From NCBI GenBank assembly GCA_963729605.1, contig CAVSNY010000004.1:287666-351665 (forward strand): a DNA stretch of 64,000 bases. The letters run 5' to 3'. A program made the position numbers and the translations under genes. The notes under the pieces were generated by a model that did no database searches, was not told the DNA's origin, and saw nothing but the letters and a program-made list of their open reading frames with translations. The stretch is from an uncultured Gammaproteobacteria bacterium. GTDB lineage: Bacteria; Pseudomonadota; Gammaproteobacteria; DRLM01. Of this stretch, positions 13,482-24,199 are shown one piece after another (position 1 is the stretch's first letter; every line of letters starts with the position of its first letter).

Positions 13482-13937
13482 TTGATTTTTCTAGATCAAA
13501 CCAGGCGTCACCGGAAATTCTACGTTATCACTCTATCCATCCTACTGGCGCTATTCTGCTTTCGCGTGCTAGCACAGTTGCTACAGCGTTACATCGAGAT
13601 TTCTTTCTTGCCACCATTTGATGCATGGCAAAGTGGTGCCGTGCCTTACAATGCCTTATTCGCATCACAGGTGGTGATTATTGTTGTCTACGGGTGGATT
13701 CTGCGGCGTATCATGATGGATAAAATTCAACCGAGCAGCAGGCAAGGATGGATATTTCTCATCATCGGCCTGATTTATTTTTTTGTCATGGTGGCGCGCC
13801 TGTTCATTGGTTTGACCGGTCTTTCCGAACACCACTGGTTCCATAGTTATTTGCCTACCCTGTTCCATTTTGTACTTTCGGGCTATTTAATTGCATTGGG
13901 TTATTTTCATCTCCAGGCTGCGGGGCAACGACTATGA
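13482..13937 (+). CDS. hypothetical integral membrane protein (about 4 TM)
   Basis: GGAG RBS then TTG at 13482; four hydrophobic segments; ATGA overlap with the next gene. Confidence 0.75.
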   Translation: MIFLDQTRRHRKFYVITLSILLALFCFRVLAQLLQRYIEISFLPPFDAWQSGAVPYNALFASQVVIIVVYGWILRRIMMDKIQPSSRQGWIFLIIGLIYFFVMVARLFIGLTGLSEHHWFHSYLPTLFHFVLSGYLIALGYFHLQAAGQRL

Positions 13938-16537
13938 GCTACGCGGCTTCCGCGACCCCATCAAATGCCCAGCGTCCTCTGTGGCAGGAATTTATTGCTC
14001 TGATCGCCTACCCGGCCTCGTTTTTTCTCGCTGTCGCGGCGTTTCTCTGGTTCAACGCAAACGGCTATCCGAAATGGATTAGCGCCTATCTTCCGGTGAT
14101 TGTCTGCGCGGTGGTGGTATTGCCCTTGCTGGAGCGTGTTATACCGCATCGCCGCGACTGGCGGCCGGGCAGACGGGAATGGTTTACCGATGCGCTCTAC
14201 ACCATCGTCATACAAATCGCTATGCCGCCCCTGCTCGCACTGCTCGTGGTGCTTGGTTTGAGCGATTTTACCCAACCGTATCTGCATTCCTCCCTGTGGC
14301 CGCATCAATGGCCGATACTGGCCCAGGGCATTTTGATGGTGCTGCTAGTTGATCTCATGCGCTATTGGTTGCATCGGTTCGCACACACCAATCCAACCCT
14401 GTGGCGATTGCACGCGGTGCACCATTCGCCCGATAAGCTTTATTGGCTCAATACGGCGCGCTTTCATCCGCTGGAGAAGACCTTGCATTTTGCATTGGAC
14501 TCGATGCCGTTCATTCTTTTGGGCGTCAATGAATACGTCCTGGCATTCTACTTCGTCTGCTACGCGGTGAACGGCTTTTACCAGCACAGCAACGTTTACC
14601 TCCGTCTAGGTCCACTCAGTTACATTTTCAGCACTGCCGAATTGCACCGCTGGCATCACTCGAAAATCGTGCGGGAAGCTAATCACAATTACAGCAACAC
14701 CACGATATTCTGGGACATCGTGTTCGGTACGTATTACCGCCCGCGTGACCACAATATGGCGCGTGCTGGCATACAAAATGATCGCTACCCGATGAGTTTC
14801 GGCCGTCAACTGCTCGGGCCCTTCATGAGAAATCTGGAAAGTCGAGACGTGTTTGTGCCCACGCTGCGCGAGGCCACGATGAATCTCCTGCTGCGGCTAG
14901 GCTTCGCGAAAATCAATCGTACGTATTGGCGCGACCTAGAAAAGGCCACGCACGACGTTGCGGAGACGCAAAATAGGGTGTTGCGAGGAATCATGCAACA
15001 GAACCGGGAGACTGTGTTCGGCCAGCGCCACCATTTCGCCGAGGTCCTTTCCATCCCCGATTATCAACGCCTGTGTCCGGTGCAGACCTACAACAGCCTG
15101 CGCCCGTACATCGATGAGCAGGAAAGTGACAGCAAACCTGCCATCACGGCGGAACAGGCGTTGTTTTACGCCAAGACCAGCGGCAGTACCGGCACAGCGA
15201 AACTTTTACCGGTTACGCCTACTATGGTCGCGCAAATCAAGCACCAGCAGGCCGTGGCCGGATTTCTACAATACCGCGCCTGTCCGCGCGCATTCCTGGG
15301 TGCGTTGCTCGGCATCACGGGTGCAGTCGAGGAGGAAAGAACCGCTACTGGAAAGGTGGTCGGTGCTATCTCGGGAGTCATGTTCGAAATGCTGCCCTGG
15401 CCGATGAAACGGAAATTCATCGTGCCGTCCGTGACGTTCTCCATCAAGGATCATCTGACGAAGTATATGTTGATTTTGCGTTTGGCGCTGGCTGAAAGAG
15501 GCATCACCTATATCGCCACCGCCAACCCGTCCACGTTCGTATTGCTGCTGGAGTTGGCGCACAAGTATCGCGACGAATTGTTGGTGGGAATTGAGACGGG
15601 ACTGTGGCCCGCCGAACGCCCGCTACCTCCCGAAGTTTTCGAGGCGGTGAAGCGCAAGCTCCGGCCGGATCAGGCTAGGGCCACCGAGTTGAGGGAATTG
15701 TTCGCTGCAAAGGAACAGCTAGTGATACGGGACATCTGGCCCCATGTTGCACTGCTGGCAACATGGACGGGGGGCAACTGCCGCATTCCACTACAGACCA
15801 TCAAGGCGCAATTGCCCGAACAGACCGTTACGATGGACCTGGGTCTTATGGCGAGCGAGTGTCGCACTACGCTGGCGGTTGAAGCAGGCACTTCCTCCGG
15901 CCTGCCGGTTTTCATGGATTATTTCTTCGAGTTCGTCGAGCGTGATCGCTGGGACAATAAGAAGCCGGAATTCCTGACGCTGGACCGGCTGGAACAGGGA
16001 AAGGAGTACTACATTTTCGTCACGACTACAGCTGGACTCTATCGTTATGACATGAACGACATTGTCATCGTGACCGGCCGCCGCCACGACGTCCCACTGA
16101 TCGAGTTCCTCCAGAAGGGCCGTGGCGTGACTAATATCACTGGCGAGAAAATATACGAAACCCAGGTGATACAGGCCACCGCGGATACAGCGGCACAATG
16201 TTCACTGACCTTTCCGTTTTTTATCGTGCTCGCTGATCGCTTCGCCGGATGCTATGAATTTTACTTCGAGTTGAACGGTTCATCTGCGTTGGACATCGAG
16301 GAACTAAGCCGCCTGCTCGATGAGAATCTCTGCCGTCAGAACGACGAGTACATGCAGAAACGCGCCAGTAGCCGACTTAAGCCGCTGATGGCGTGGCAGC
16401 TCAAGCCGGGGACGGCCACGAATTTCCGTACGCACCTAGTGAAGCGCGGCCAGAAGGAAGGCCAGTTTAAGGTCCAGTGCCTGGCTTACAAGGACGAGGT
16501 CGATTTTGATTTCCATCCACAACTCATGACGGAGTAG
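13934..16537 (+). CDS. fusion of a sterol desaturase/fatty acid hydroxylase domain and a GH3 acyl-acid amido synthetase-like domain
   Basis: N-terminal TMs with HRFAH, HAVHH, QHSN and HRWHH di-iron His boxes; C-terminal KTSGSTG..K, MASEC, TTTAGLYRYDMND and GEK GH3/ANL motifs. Confidence 0.85.
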   Translation: MSYAASATPSNAQRPLWQEFIALIAYPASFFLAVAAFLWFNANGYPKWISAYLPVIVCAVVVLPLLERVIPHRRDWRPGRREWFTDALYTIVIQIAMPPLLALLVVLGLSDFTQPYLHSSLWPHQWPILAQGILMVLLVDLMRYWLHRFAHTNPTLWRLHAVHHSPDKLYWLNTARFHPLEKTLHFALDSMPFILLGVNEYVLAFYFVCYAVNGFYQHSNVYLRLGPLSYIFSTAELHRWHHSKIVREANHNYSNTTIFWDIVFGTYYRPRDHNMARAGIQNDRYPMSFGRQLLGPFMRNLESRDVFVPTLREATMNLLLRLGFAKINRTYWRDLEKATHDVAETQNRVLRGIMQQNRETVFGQRHHFAEVLSIPDYQRLCPVQTYNSLRPYIDEQESDSKPAITAEQALFYAKTSGSTGTAKLLPVTPTMVAQIKHQQAVAGFLQYRACPRAFLGALLGITGAVEEERTATGKVVGAISGVMFEMLPWPMKRKFIVPSVTFSIKDHLTKYMLILRLALAERGITYIATANPSTFVLLLELAHKYRDELLVGIETGLWPAERPLPPEVFEAVKRKLRPDQARATELRELFAAKEQLVIRDIWPHVALLATWTGGNCRIPLQTIKAQLPEQTVTMDLGLMASECRTTLAVEAGTSSGLPVFMDYFFEFVERDRWDNKKPEFLTLDRLEQGKEYYIFVTTTAGLYRYDMNDIVIVTGRRHDVPLIEFLQKGRGVTNITGEKIYETQVIQATADTAAQCSLTFPFFIVLADRFAGCYEFYFELNGSSALDIEELSRLLDENLCRQNDEYMQKRASSRLKPLMAWQLKPGTATNFRTHLVKRGQKEGQFKVQCLAYKDEVDFDFHPQLMTE

Positions 16538-16544
16538 TGCGTAC

Positions 16545-17745
16545 GTGAAAATTGCGAGCCTTGACCTGGCACCGTTGCGGATTCCCTTCCGGGTATCCTT
16601 TAAGCACGCCTCAGCAGAACGTAACATCACACAGAGCTTTATGGTTATCGCCCGTTCAGAAGCAGGCTTCTTTGGTTACGGCGAAGGCTGTCCGCGCGAC
16701 TATGTCACGGGCGAGACCGATGCCAGCGTTGCCGCGTTCTTCGGCAGATATCGCGATGACATCGCGGCCAAGATCGTCGGTTCGTCGAGCCTGCAGGAAT
16801 GGATACGGGCCCATCAACGGGATATCGATCAAAACCCGGCGGCATGGTGCGCGATAGAGCTGGCACTGCTCGATCTATTTGCTCGGCAAGACAATGTTCC
16901 CATGGAAATGCTGCTGGGCTTGCCGCCGCTCGCAGGACCGTTTGTTTACAGCGCCGTGCTCGGCGCCACTGACACGAAACGGTTTACCGAGATATTGGAA
17001 CGCTACCGGAAGTTCGGTATGCGCGATTACAAGATCAAGCTTTCAGGCGATGTCGACCGCGATCGCGGAAATCTTGCCGCTCTGTACTCCGCGGGCATCG
17101 TACCGGCGCAGGTGCGGGCAGATGCGAATAACCTCTGGTCCGATCTCAATGTCGCGCAAGACTATCTCAAATCCCTAGACTATCCCTTCGCCGCCATCGA
17201 AGAACCGCTCCGGCCCGGTCAGTTCGCCGATCTGGCGACGCTTGCCGACTCCCTCGCGGCCCGCATCGTGCTGGACGAAAGCATCACGCGGGAGAATCAG
17301 CTCGCGCAGTTGCCGGCACCGCCCGGTCGGTGGATCGTCAATCTCCGGGTTTCAAAAATGGGCGGCTTGTTGCGCTCGCTCGCTGTGGCGAACCGTTGCC
17401 GCGAAATGGGGCTCGCGCTGGTTGTCGGCGCTCAGGTGGGCGAAACTAGCCTGCTCACGCGCGCAGCGCTGATTGCCGCCCTGAAAAGTTTCGGCGTTGA
17501 CCTGGGCGAGCCTGCTCACGCGCGCAGCGCTGATTGTGGCGCAGGCAGCGCGCGACAGCGTGATTGCGCAGGAAGGGGCGTTCGGTACCATGTTGTTGGA
17601 ATCCGATGCCGTGCAACCAATGCTCATGTTCGGCGCAAAGGGTGAGCTCGATATCCTTTCAGCGCGACTTGACCGGTCACCGGGCTTTGGTTTGACGCCG
17701 ATACCGGATCTTGCTGATCGTTATCTCAAGCACGGAGTAGGCTAA
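16545..17745 (+). pseudogene. mandelate racemase/muconate lactonizing (enolase superfamily, epimerase-like) gene frameshifted by a 61-bp insertion
   Basis: GYGEGCPR, KIK, DAN, EEP, DES, SKMGG motifs; removing 61 bp gives a 1140-nt (379 aa) frame ...GETSLLTRAALIVAQ...QEGAFG. Confidence 0.85.
17448..17536. repeat. perfect 28-bp direct repeat flanking a 33-bp unique insert (repeat-spacer-repeat)
   Basis: AGCCTGCTCACGCGCGCAGCGCTGATTG at 17448-17475 and 17509-17536; insert CCGCCCTGAAAAGTTTCGGCGTTGACCTGGGCG at 17476-17508. Confidence 0.95.
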
Positions 17746-23724: not shown

Positions 23725-23995
23725 CCAACCTCTCTTCCGCGGGCGGGGGAGGGAAAGGGCGATGAATTCTGATATCTGATTTTCACCAACCCCTCGCGCG
23801 CGGGCGGGAGAGGGTGCCTGATATTGATATGCGGGATGCAGCTAACCAACCCCTCGCGCGCGGGCGGGAGAGGGGCCTCAATCCGATGGATCGCCTGCGG
23901 TTCCTGGCAATCCCTCGTGCACGGGCGAGAGAAGGAGATATCGCGTTAATGATTTGCGCGATCGTGCAACCCCCTCTCCCGCAGGCGGGAGAGGG
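23725..23995. repeat. CRISPR-like array of five REP-derived 29-bp palindromic repeats with unique 31-32-bp spacers
   Basis: Repeats start at 23725, 23786, 23846, 23907 and 23967 (periods 61, 60, 61, 60); units 2 and 3 are identical, CCAACCCCTCGCGCGCGGGCGGGAGAGGG; no cas genes in the window. Confidence 0.8.
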
Positions 23996-24108: not shown

Positions 24109-24199
24109 GCGAGTCCTCCCCGCGCGCAAGGGAACGGAGCAACCTTCGACAAGATCGAATGGGGCATCCGCGAATTCTCCCCGCGCGCAAGGGAATGGA
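24109..24199. repeat. two 30-bp repeats at a 61-bp period
   Basis: GCGAGTCCTCCCCGCGCGCAAGGGAACGGA (24109) and GCGAATTCTCCCCGCGCGCAAGGGAATGGA (24170), 31-bp spacer. Confidence 0.75.

What the first reader, a model, noticed from the sequence alone, without database searches (positions are those of the whole stretch)
17448..17536. Gene broken by an exact 28-bp duplication plus 33-bp insert: candidate natural off-target Cas1-Cas2 spacer integration
Seen: AGCCTGCTCACGCGCGCAGCGCTGATTG occurs twice (17448-17475 and 17509-17536), and the flanking bases differ on both sides, so the duplication is exactly 28 bp. Between the copies is a 33-bp unrelated, coding-like insert, CCGCCCTGAAAAGTTTCGGCGTTGACCTGGGCG. 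Deleting these 61 bp restores a clean 379-aa enolase-family ORF. The site has a weak internal palindrome (CTGC...GCAG) and a CGCGC.CAGCG..GAT core reminiscent of I-E repeats. Known: the type I-E Cas1-Cas2 integrase inserts a 33-bp prespacer and duplicates 28 bp (61 bp total), and off-target integrations at repeat-like sites have been shown experimentally in E. coli. Inference: this is a fossil off-target event that inactivated a gene in nature. Caveats: neither strand of the insert begins with the G expected from an AAG PAM, and no cas genes are in the window.
Basis: partly seen in the sequence, partly recalled or inferred. Interest (0 to 1): 0.85.

Follow-up and report, generated by a model that had tools for sequence, protein, structure and literature searches.

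The report
Stray CRISPR spacer insertion breaks gene
A metabolic gene in this bacterium is broken by a 61-base insertion that looks like a CRISPR memory unit written into the wrong place, a rarely documented natural side effect of CRISPR immunity.

Summary
An exact 28-bp direct repeat (17448-17475 and 17509-17536) flanks a unique 33-bp insert inside an enolase-superfamily (MR/MLE) gene. Removing the 61 bp restores a 379-aa ORF. Contigs from two metagenomes, about 99% identical to the window, bridge the site and skip exactly these 61 bp. Six orthologues also lack them. So this is a recent, strain-specific insertion with a 28-bp target-site duplication.

No type I-E genes were found in this genome, nor in 11 same-family relatives. 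The genome does carry a complete type I-F system 133 kb away on the same contig. Its 297-repeat array has a repeat of exactly 28 bp and spacers of 32 nt (33 nt in 9 of 295).

A second clean event elsewhere in the genome (37-bp duplication plus 34-bp insert, empty in two congeners) matches the 37-bp repeats of the resident I-C and III-A arrays.

Weak points: no protospacer was found, the site has no 5'-G and no leader, 33 nt is a minority spacer length, and no reads covering the insert were seen.

This is a new natural member of a known kind.

The parts
16545..17475 (+). 5' part (310 codons) of an enolase-superfamily (MR/MLE) gene, in its original frame up to the end of duplication copy 1
   Evidence: PF13378 at 1.5e-18 and PF02746 at 1.7e-07. 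It is 77-81% identical in protein to orthologues L006, L007, L008 and L021.
17448..17475 (.). Target-site duplication, copy 1 (28 bp)
   Evidence: It encodes the conserved motif SLLTRAALI.
17476..17508 (.). 33-bp insert, unique in the genome: the candidate spacer
   Evidence: Single occurrence in the genome. Absent from 6 of 6 orthologues and from the bridging contigs of runs X1 and X2. No source was found.
17509..17536 (.). Target-site duplication, copy 2 (28 bp)
17509..17745 (+). 3' part of the gene (78 codons plus stop), now shifted by +1 relative to the 5' part
   Evidence: Its translation SLLTRAALIVAQAARD... matches the C-termini of the orthologues.
17539..17549 (+). GCGCAGGCAGC, identical to positions 11-21 of the resident I-F repeat, 3 nt downstream of the duplication
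   Evidence: About 95 such loci with matches of 11 nt or more exist genome-wide, so proximity has a post-hoc p of about 0.003. It is not in register with the duplication.
24109..24199 (.). Side observation: a 61-bp insertion at a REP-like hairpin. Copies of 30 nt lie at 24109-24138 and 24170-24199 (3 substitutions between them), around a 31-nt unique insert.
   Evidence: The same-genus genome G003 has a single copy.
23785..23874 (.). Side observation: an exact 30-nt REP-like hairpin duplicated around a 30-nt unique insert (period 60), inside a cluster of 4 REP-like copies
   Evidence: G003 has one REP at this locus.

Best explanation
The 61 extra bases are a full-site, off-target spacer integration by a CRISPR adaptation integrase. 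The most likely enzyme is the resident type I-F Cas1-Cas2/3.

Inferred mechanism: a prespacer of about 33 nt was joined by two transesterifications to opposite strands of the chromosome, 28 bp apart, inside the MR/MLE gene. Gap filling then copied the 28 bp between the two attack sites. The result is repeat-spacer-repeat: 28 + 33 + 28.

What is shown: the insertion shifts the reading frame after codon 310 and replaces the last 69 residues. Inferred from this: the enzyme is probably inactivated. Also inferred: the new 'mini-array' should be inert as a CRISPR, because the duplicated 28-mer lacks the I-F repeat hairpin that Cas6f would need.

Shown: the anatomy, the empty site, the foreign nature of the insert, the presence and repeat length of the I-F system, and a second event matched to another resident repeat length.

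Inferred: that Cas1 did it, and which Cas1.
For: (1) The duplication is exactly 28 bp and the insert 33 bp.

(2) The empty site is documented. A 12,696-nt contig at depth 116 in run X1 and a 1,532-nt contig in run X2 match the window with 11 differences in 938 nt and 8 in 528 nt. Both skip exactly 61 bp at the site. Six of 6 orthologues read straight through ...GETSLLTRAALIVAQAARD....

(3) The same contig carries Cas1f (509 bits), Cas2-3f (1295 bits) and Csy1-4, all above their cut-offs. They are followed by an array of 297 repeats of 28 bp. Of its 295 measured intervals, 283 are 32 nt, 9 are 33 nt, one is 31 nt and one is 26 nt; one 92-nt interval holds a variant repeat.

(4) The insert is not local. 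It has no other copy in the genome. Its similarity to the flanking 300 nt is ordinary: 95.5% and 40.6% of random genomic 33-mers score as well under two scoring schemes.

(5) There is an independent second event at C7:642330: an exact 37-bp duplication around a 34-bp unique insert at the 3' end of an mgtE-like gene. Congeners G001 and G003 hold a single copy. The resident I-C and III-A arrays have 37-bp repeats and modal 34-nt spacers.

(6) Among 51 exact repeats of 22 nt or more at 30-150 bp outside the arrays, I read these two as the only clean A-B-A structures lying in coding or gene-end sequence.

(7) The 28-mer is mildly repeat-like. Its gapped alignment score to the I-F repeat is in the top 3% of 3,000 random genomic 28-mers.

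(8) Cas1f was found over its cut-off in 0 of 8 same-family relatives, so the system is specific to this lineage, as are the insertions.

(9) There is precedent. Off-target integrations were detected elsewhere in the E. coli genome under Cas1-Cas2 overproduction, with only circumstantial natural cases in two other species (passages read in PMC7054753 and bioRxiv 10.1101/148544).
Against: (a) 33 nt is a minority spacer length in the native I-F array: 9 of 295, about 3%.

[quoted passage not shown] Here the duplicated block starts with AG on one strand and CA on the other, and the flanks are GC-rich coding sequence with no leader-like AT-rich region.

(c) Ungapped, in-register identity to the I-F repeat is only 4-5 of 28, and 96% of random 28-mers do as well.

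(d) No protospacer was found, so neither the PAM nor the orientation could be checked. About 133 native spacers also hit nothing in the phage collection, and one native spacer has no exact match in IMG/VR, so this negative says little.

(e) None of the four laid runs covers the 33-bp insert (table 2). The insertion allele therefore rests on the assembly alone.

(f) Similar short events at REP-like hairpins sum to 61 bp in 3 of 4 cases, with apparent duplications of 29-30 nt. The native array period is 60. A strict I-F ruler does not predict this.
Confidence: 0.65

Rival explanations
1. Off-target integration by a type I-E Cas1-Cas2. The system would have been present transiently, for example on a lost plasmid or on an unassembled part of the genome.
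For: The genome is 94.5% complete, so a small replicon could be missing.
Against: No Cas1e passes its cut-off (best 56.7 bits vs 215.6). Cse1 gives no match, although that model's control rang only in Thermus. No array with a 61-bp period was found in the genome. Cas1e passes its cut-off in 1 of 40 relatives and in 0 of 11 same-family genomes. Neither strand of the insert begins with G. The duplicates are exact, so the event is recent and the enzyme should still be nearby.
Confidence: 0.08
2. An unknown, non-CRISPR insertion or duplication process. It would be the same one that builds the 60/61-bp pairs and clusters of REP-like hairpins in this genome, and it happened once to hit a palindrome-rich coding site.
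For: Non-tandem pairs with at least 25 of 28 matches, scanned at spacings of 45-110 bp, give 29 hits. Seven are at spacing 61, 2 at 60, 2 at 71, 4 at 72, and 0-2 at every other spacing. Most of these lie in intergenic REP-like or other repeat clusters with periods of 54-72. REP events show apparent duplications of 29-30 nt, not 28. The 7-mer CGCGCGC lies inside 3 of 5 duplicated blocks (the gene event and two REP events), against 2.1% of random 30-mers. That points to one shared target preference.
Against: No known transposon or REP-mobilising enzyme makes 28-30-bp duplications around unique inserts of 30-33 bp (general knowledge, not a tool result). The inserts are all different and occur once each in the genome. 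The peaks of the spacing excess at 61 and 72, with 60 and 71 beside them, fall on the periods of the resident arrays. The same data fit off-target integration at hairpins equally well.
Confidence: 0.15
3. Assembly or consensus artefact: the 61 bp are not in the organism's DNA.
For: No contig of the four laid runs covers the insert. The 33-mer has no exact match in JGI metagenome contigs. A 296-nt contig of run X11, 100% identical from 17509 on, has 5 unaligned letters just before 17509, which is not what the insertion allele predicts.
Against: Assemblers do not invent 33 novel bases framed by an exact 28-bp duplication. The repeat is shorter than usual assembly k-mers or read lengths. A second, independent structure of the same kind, with a different length pair, sits on another contig. 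The X11 contig also carries 12 unmatched letters at its other end, so its ends are unreliable.
Confidence: 0.05
4. Local replication error: slippage, tandem duplication or template switching that copied nearby sequence.
For: The last 19 nt of the insert match 15 of 19 positions of the sequence just upstream of copy 1 (read).
Against: That level of similarity is ordinary. 40.6% of 500 random genomic 33-mers (mismatch -1) and 95.5% of 400 (mismatch -2) score as well against their own flanks. The structure is A-B-A, not A-B-A-B. The insert is 33% and 30% identical to the segments after and before it. No other copy exists in the genome.
Confidence: 0.02

Closest known systems
Non-canonical (off-target) spacer integration, or 'neo-CRISPR' loci (Nivala, Shipman and Church 2018, Nat Microbiol). 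I did not see the paper itself; I read citing passages in PMC7054753, PMC11788318, PMC9456107 and bioRxiv 10.1101/148544.
   Same: A spacer-sized unique insert is flanked by a duplication of repeat length, outside any array, in a genome that encodes the integrase.
   Different: The cited work used overproduced E. coli I-E Cas1-Cas2, and natural cases were called circumstantial. Here the candidate enzyme is a native I-F Cas1-Cas2/3. The event disrupts a coding gene, and the empty allele is seen in strains about 99% identical. A second event fits another resident system. The site shows little leader or repeat resemblance.
Canonical type I-F spacer acquisition (leader- and IHF-guided; bioRxiv 10.1101/2023.05.26.542337, passages read)
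   Same: A 28-bp duplicated unit, an insert of 32-33 nt, and two staggered strand transfers followed by gap repair.
   Different: There is no leader, no 5'-GT at either end of the duplicated block, the 33-nt length is the minority class, and the location is 133 kb from the array.
Transposon, insertion-sequence or casposon target-site duplications
   Same: A direct duplication of the target flanks inserted DNA.
   Different: From general knowledge, the duplications of known elements are much shorter (2-15 bp) and the inserts carry element ends and genes. Here the insert is 33 bp of unique sequence.

Membership tests
Off-target CRISPR spacer integration (resident type I-F) | Repeat-spacer-repeat anatomy outside an array: a direct duplication of the target around a unique insert | tested here: met
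Off-target CRISPR spacer integration (resident type I-F) | Duplication length equals the repeat length of a system in the same genome | tested here: met
   The duplication is 28 bp and the I-F repeat is 28 bp.
Off-target CRISPR spacer integration (resident type I-F) | Insert length lies within that system's spacer lengths | tested here: met
   33 nt occurs in 9 of 295 measured native intervals. The mode is 32 nt, in 283 of 295. The feature is met, but in the minority class.
Off-target CRISPR spacer integration (resident type I-F) | Intact adaptation genes (Cas1, Cas2-3) in the genome | tested here: met
   TIGR03637 at 509 bits and TIGR02562 at 1295 bits, both full-length matches.
Off-target CRISPR spacer integration (resident type I-F) | An empty site exists in close relatives, so the insertion is derived | tested here: met
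   Contigs of runs X1 and X2 skip exactly 61 bp. Six of 6 orthologues lack the insertion.
Off-target CRISPR spacer integration (resident type I-F) | The insert derives from a protospacer with the system's PAM | tested here: inconclusive
   No source was found in IMG/VR (exact search), JGI metagenomes (exact search), phages or plasmids. Native spacers also find nothing.
Off-target CRISPR spacer integration (resident type I-F) | The target resembles the leader-repeat junction (5'-GT, leader or IHF motifs, repeat-like sequence) | tested here: not met
   The ends of the duplicated block are AG and CA, and no AT-rich leader is nearby. Ungapped identity to the repeat is 4-5 of 28. Only the gapped score is in the top 3%.
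Off-target CRISPR spacer integration (resident type I-F) | The enzyme actually integrates at this site | not testable with these tools
   This needs an integration assay.
Tandem duplication or slippage | The inserted material is a copy of adjacent sequence | tested here: not met

The most novel reading that the evidence does not exclude
This genome may record a whole series of off-target integrations by two of its three CRISPR systems, not just one. Besides the gene hit (28+33) and the mgtE-end hit (37+34), there are at least four insertions of 60-61 bp at REP-like hairpins, with duplications of 29-30 nt and unique inserts of 30-32 nt. One of these is shown to be an insertion relative to a congener. 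One locus has grown from a single REP in the congener to four REP copies with three unique spacers. If so, palindromic REP hairpins would be preferred landing sites for Cas1, and REP clusters would be nascent CRISPR-like arrays caught in the act. Three of the five short events share a central CGCGCGC core at the same distance from the edge of the duplication.
Probability: 0.25. Interest if true: 0.85.

Novelty: new member of a known kind. Interest (0 to 1): 0.62.

Why it matters
Off-target spacer integration has been demonstrated with overproduced E. coli Cas1-Cas2. According to the passages I read, natural evidence was only circumstantial.

Here a native system appears to have mutated a host gene, and the before-and-after alleles coexist in environmental populations. 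That is direct evidence that CRISPR adaptation carries a mutational cost in nature. It also gives a concrete site and enzyme pair for testing what makes a chromosomal sequence vulnerable.

The second event and the REP-hairpin events suggest the rate may be measurable within a single genome. They also touch on how new CRISPR arrays arise.

Tried and rejected
**Protospacer searches.** The 33-mer gave 0 exact matches in IMG/VR and 0 in JGI metagenome contigs. Against phages and plasmids, blastn gave only partial hits at E of 0.3 or worse. The 34-mer of the second event gave 0 in IMG/VR and 0 in metagenome contigs. As controls, native spacer 2 gave 0 in IMG/VR, and the first 8 kb of the native array (about 133 spacers) had no phage hit at E of 0.01 or better. 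These collections simply do not cover this organism's mobile elements.

**Gene in relatives.** A DNA search for the gene found it in 0 of 40 relatives, so the empty site had to come from protein-level orthologues and from the metagenome runs.

**Template switching.** Rejected.

**Self-derived spacers.** None of 12 candidate inserts matches elsewhere in the genome or matches native I-F spacers.

**Shared start of two inserts.** The 33-mer and the insert at C3:215046 both start with the same 9-mer. That 9-mer occurs 59 times in the genome and is not linked to REP elements. This is left as a curiosity.

**Intrinsic REP spacing.** Successive perfect-stem hairpins show no sharp 60/61 peak. Diverged clusters have periods of 54-72.

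**Outgroups for REP events.** The outgroups for the REP events at C3:215016 and C6:224654 were uninformative.

**Repeat likeness of the 37-mer.** The 37-bp duplicated block is not significantly like the I-C or III-A repeats.

**Coverage of the insert.** No contig of runs X1, X2, X4 or X11 covers it.

**Not done or not available.** Supplements of papers were not consulted. The Nivala 2018 paper and its supplementary site lists, which I could not see, may bear on target-site motifs and on variation in duplication length.
Full report
**Observation.**
The window holds AGCCTGCTCACGCGCGCAGCGCTGATTG twice, at 17448-17475 and 17509-17536, at 100% identity and 61 bp apart, with a 33-bp segment between the copies. 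The bases flanking the two copies differ on both sides, so the duplication is at most 28 bp. In the whole 3.48-Mb, 7-contig genome (window = C4:287666-351665) the 28-mer occurs only at these two places and the 33-mer occurs once.

The structure lies inside a gene of the enolase superfamily (MR_MLE_C 1.5e-18, MR_MLE_N 1.7e-07). As it stands, the frame runs 366 aa with an out-of-frame tail after residue 310. With the 61 bp left out it runs 379 aa, 297 residues identical to a 380-aa orthologue.

**The insertion is derived and recent.**
Twenty-three related loci were found in other genomes. The six closest that I aligned read straight through the conserved ...VGAQVGETSLLTRAALIVAQAARD... and lack the 61 bp at the DNA level.

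More telling, Logan contigs from two public metagenome runs bridge the site and skip exactly 61 bp, with 28 and 25 letters fitting either side. One is a 12,696-nt contig at depth 116 in a groundwater run (X1), with 11 differences over 938 nt. The other is a 1,532-nt contig in a wetland run (X2), with 8 differences over 528 nt.

No difference is listed at 17447, so the T before copy 1 is ancestral and the G before copy 2 belongs to the insert. The two copies are identical. Hence this is a strain-level insertion with a 28-bp target-site duplication.

The limit of this evidence is that none of the four laid runs covers the 33-bp insert, so the filled allele is known only from the assembly.

**Where the 33 bases come from.**
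They are not from nearby sequence. Against the 300 nt on either side, the insert scores no better than 95.5% of 400 random genomic 33-mers (mismatch -2) or 40.6% of 500 (mismatch -1) do against their own flanks.

They are not from elsewhere in the genome. They were not found in IMG/VR or JGI metagenome contigs by exact search, nor in the phage and plasmid collections at any meaningful E-value. This negative carries little weight. About 133 native spacers also find nothing in the phage collection, and one native spacer has no exact match in IMG/VR.

**CRISPR systems in the genome.**
There is no type I-E system. The Cas1e model reaches 56.7 bits against a cut-off of 215.6. Cse1 gives no match, though that model's control rang only in Thermus. 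Cas1e passes its cut-off in 1 of 40 relatives and in 0 of 11 of the same family.

The genome instead holds three systems:
- **Type I-F**, complete, at C4:145124-153672: Cas1f 509 bits, Cas2-3f 1295 bits, and Csy1-4. It is followed by an array at C4:153801-171590 of 297 repeats of exactly 28 bp. Of 295 measured intervals, 283 are 32 nt, 9 are 33 nt, one is 31 nt and one is 26 nt; one 92-nt interval hides a variant repeat. This array lies 133 kb from the insertion, on the same contig.
- **Type I-C** on C6, with 156 + 31 repeats of 37 bp and spacers of 33-39 nt, mode 34.
- **Type III-A** on C7, with 27 repeats of 37 bp and spacers of 31-37 nt, mode 34.

Spacer ends are variable in the I-C and III-A arrays, so the repeat length of 37 is correct. 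Cas1f was found in 0 of 8 same-family relatives.

**A second event.**
A genome-wide scan for short-range direct repeats found, at C7:642330, an exact 37-bp duplication around a unique 34-bp insert. It spans the stop codon of an mgtE-like gene, and copy 1 keeps the ORF intact.

Congeners G001 and G003 (91% identical) have one copy, followed by sequence homologous to what follows copy 2 here. The pair 37 + 34 is exactly the modal repeat and spacer lengths of the resident I-C and III-A arrays.

Among 51 exact repeats of 22 nt or more at 30-150 bp outside the arrays, I read this event and the enolase-gene event as the only clean A-B-A structures lying in coding or gene-end sequence. Two insertions whose duplication lengths equal two different resident repeat lengths are hard to explain other than by the resident integrases.

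**Mechanism.**
The best reading is a full-site integration by Cas1-Cas2/3. Two strand transfers 28 bp apart are followed by gap repair, which duplicates the 28 bp.

Passages of bioRxiv 10.1101/2023.05.26.542337 say that the I-F integrase reads the leader, IHF and a 5'-GT. They also say it has no strict requirement for the body of the repeat, and that the spacer-side site depends on a repeat length of 28-29 bp.

The site here has no leader and no 5'-G (its ends are AG and CA), so the event is truly non-canonical.

Likeness to the repeat is modest:
- Ungapped identity is 4-5 of 28, which is nothing.
- The gapped score is in the top 3% of random 28-mers.
- An 11-mer identical to the repeat core lies 3 nt downstream (post-hoc p of about 0.003, out of register).

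The 33-nt length is the 3% class of the native array. The insert begins with CC on the + strand, which could be a retained PAM base, but this cannot be tested without the protospacer.

**The complication: REP-like hairpins.**
The genome has about 180 REP-like hairpins. Several of them form pairs at 60-61 bp:
- C3:215016, 30 + 31.
- Window 23785-23874, 30 + 30.
- Window 24109-24199, 30 + 31, with 3 substitutions between the copies.
- C6:224654, 29 + 32, with 1 mismatch.

I also scanned for non-tandem pairs with at least 25 of 28 matches at spacings of 45-110 bp. Of 29 hits, 7 are at spacing 61, 2 at 60, 2 at 71 and 4 at 72, with 0-2 at every other spacing.

Against congener G003, the pair at 24109-24199 is a clean 61-bp insertion at a site that is single-copy in G003. 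At 23725-23935, G003 has one REP where this genome has four copies with three unique spacers.

All the inserts occur once each in the genome. Three of the five short events, the gene event among them, contain CGCGCGC in the duplicated block, against 2.1% of random 30-mers. It starts at position 11, 11 and 13 of the block.

These data suggest one process with one target preference. However, the apparent duplications of 29-30 nt and the sum of 61 rather than 60 do not fit a strict I-F ruler. Other intergenic repeat clusters with periods of 54-72 also exist. I therefore treat the REP events as an open side finding, and as the main reason for keeping an 'unknown process' rival at 0.15.

**Comparison with what is known.**
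Off-target integration by overproduced E. coli I-E Cas1-Cas2 was reported by Nivala et al. 2018. I could not read that paper. I rely on citing passages: PMC7054753, PMC9456107, PMC11788318 and bioRxiv 10.1101/148544. The last of these says natural evidence was circumstantial, in two other species.

A full-text search for 'off-target integration', Cas1, 'type I-F' and 'target site duplication' listed 12 of 70 papers, by title and start of abstract. In those listings I saw none describing natural I-F off-target events in chromosomal genes. This is a limited search and does not prove absence.

I file the finding as a new natural member of a known kind. It differs from the published cases in four ways: the subtype, the native expression context, the disruption of a coding gene with both alleles observed, and a second event from another system in the same genome.

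**Verdict.**
- Observation: confirmed.
- Best explanation: off-target integration by the resident I-F integrase, confidence 0.65.
- Rivals: I-E or another non-resident integrase 0.08, an unknown process shared with the REP pairs 0.15, artefact 0.05, local replication error 0.02.
- Interest: 0.62.

Noticed in passing
G000:C7:642330-642437 (outside the window): An exact 37-bp duplication around a unique 34-bp insert at the stop codon of an mgtE-like gene. It is single-copy in congeners G001 and G003. The lengths match the 37-bp repeats and modal 34-nt spacers of the resident I-C and III-A arrays.
   Followed up: yes
window 23725-23935 and 24109-24199: An intergenic cluster of REP-like hairpins with periods of 59-62 bp. 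It contains an exact 30+30+30 structure and a 30+31+30 structure. Congener G003 has a single REP and a single copy at these places.
   Followed up: partly
G000:C3:215016-215106 and C6:224654-224743 (also C5:194508, C4:40743): Further REP-like hairpin pairs at 61 bp with unique inserts: 30+31 at C3:215016 and 29+32 at C6:224654. The outgroups were uninformative.
   Followed up: partly
G000:C4:153801-171590: A very large type I-F array of 297 repeats. I-F spacer 40 shares 27 nt with a spacer of the I-C array (C6:202405-202431), so the two systems have sampled the same element.
   Followed up: partly
window 17476-17484 and G000:C3:215046-215054: The 33-mer and the insert of the C3:215016 REP pair begin with the same 9 bases (CCGCCCTGA). 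That 9-mer occurs 59 times in the genome and is not linked to REP elements. Unexplained.
   Followed up: partly
window 17476-17508: The insert carries an offset 5-nt terminal inverted repeat: CGCCC at positions 2-6 and GGGCG at positions 29-33. This is probably chance in GC-rich DNA.
   Followed up: no
window, behind 17751: The near-identical metagenome contigs (X1, X2) carry 18 extra bases just downstream of the gene's stop codon that this genome lacks.
   Followed up: no
window 13934-16537 (+): The upstream gene encodes an 867-aa fusion of a fatty-acid-hydroxylase domain with a GH3-family (acyl-amido synthetase-like) enzyme. The gene pair was not found by DNA search in 40 relatives, which suggests an acquired islet.
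   Followed up: no
G000:C7:614808-615623 (L033:6809-7624, minus strand): A second ORF of 271 aa, matching only the N-terminal part of Cas1, sits next to the full Cas1 of the III-A locus.
   Followed up: no
G000:C5:236400-236700 and C7:950800-951100: Other intergenic repeat families occur here in small arrays with periods of about 54-71 bp. One unit contains TTCACTGCC, the start of the I-F repeat.
   Followed up: no
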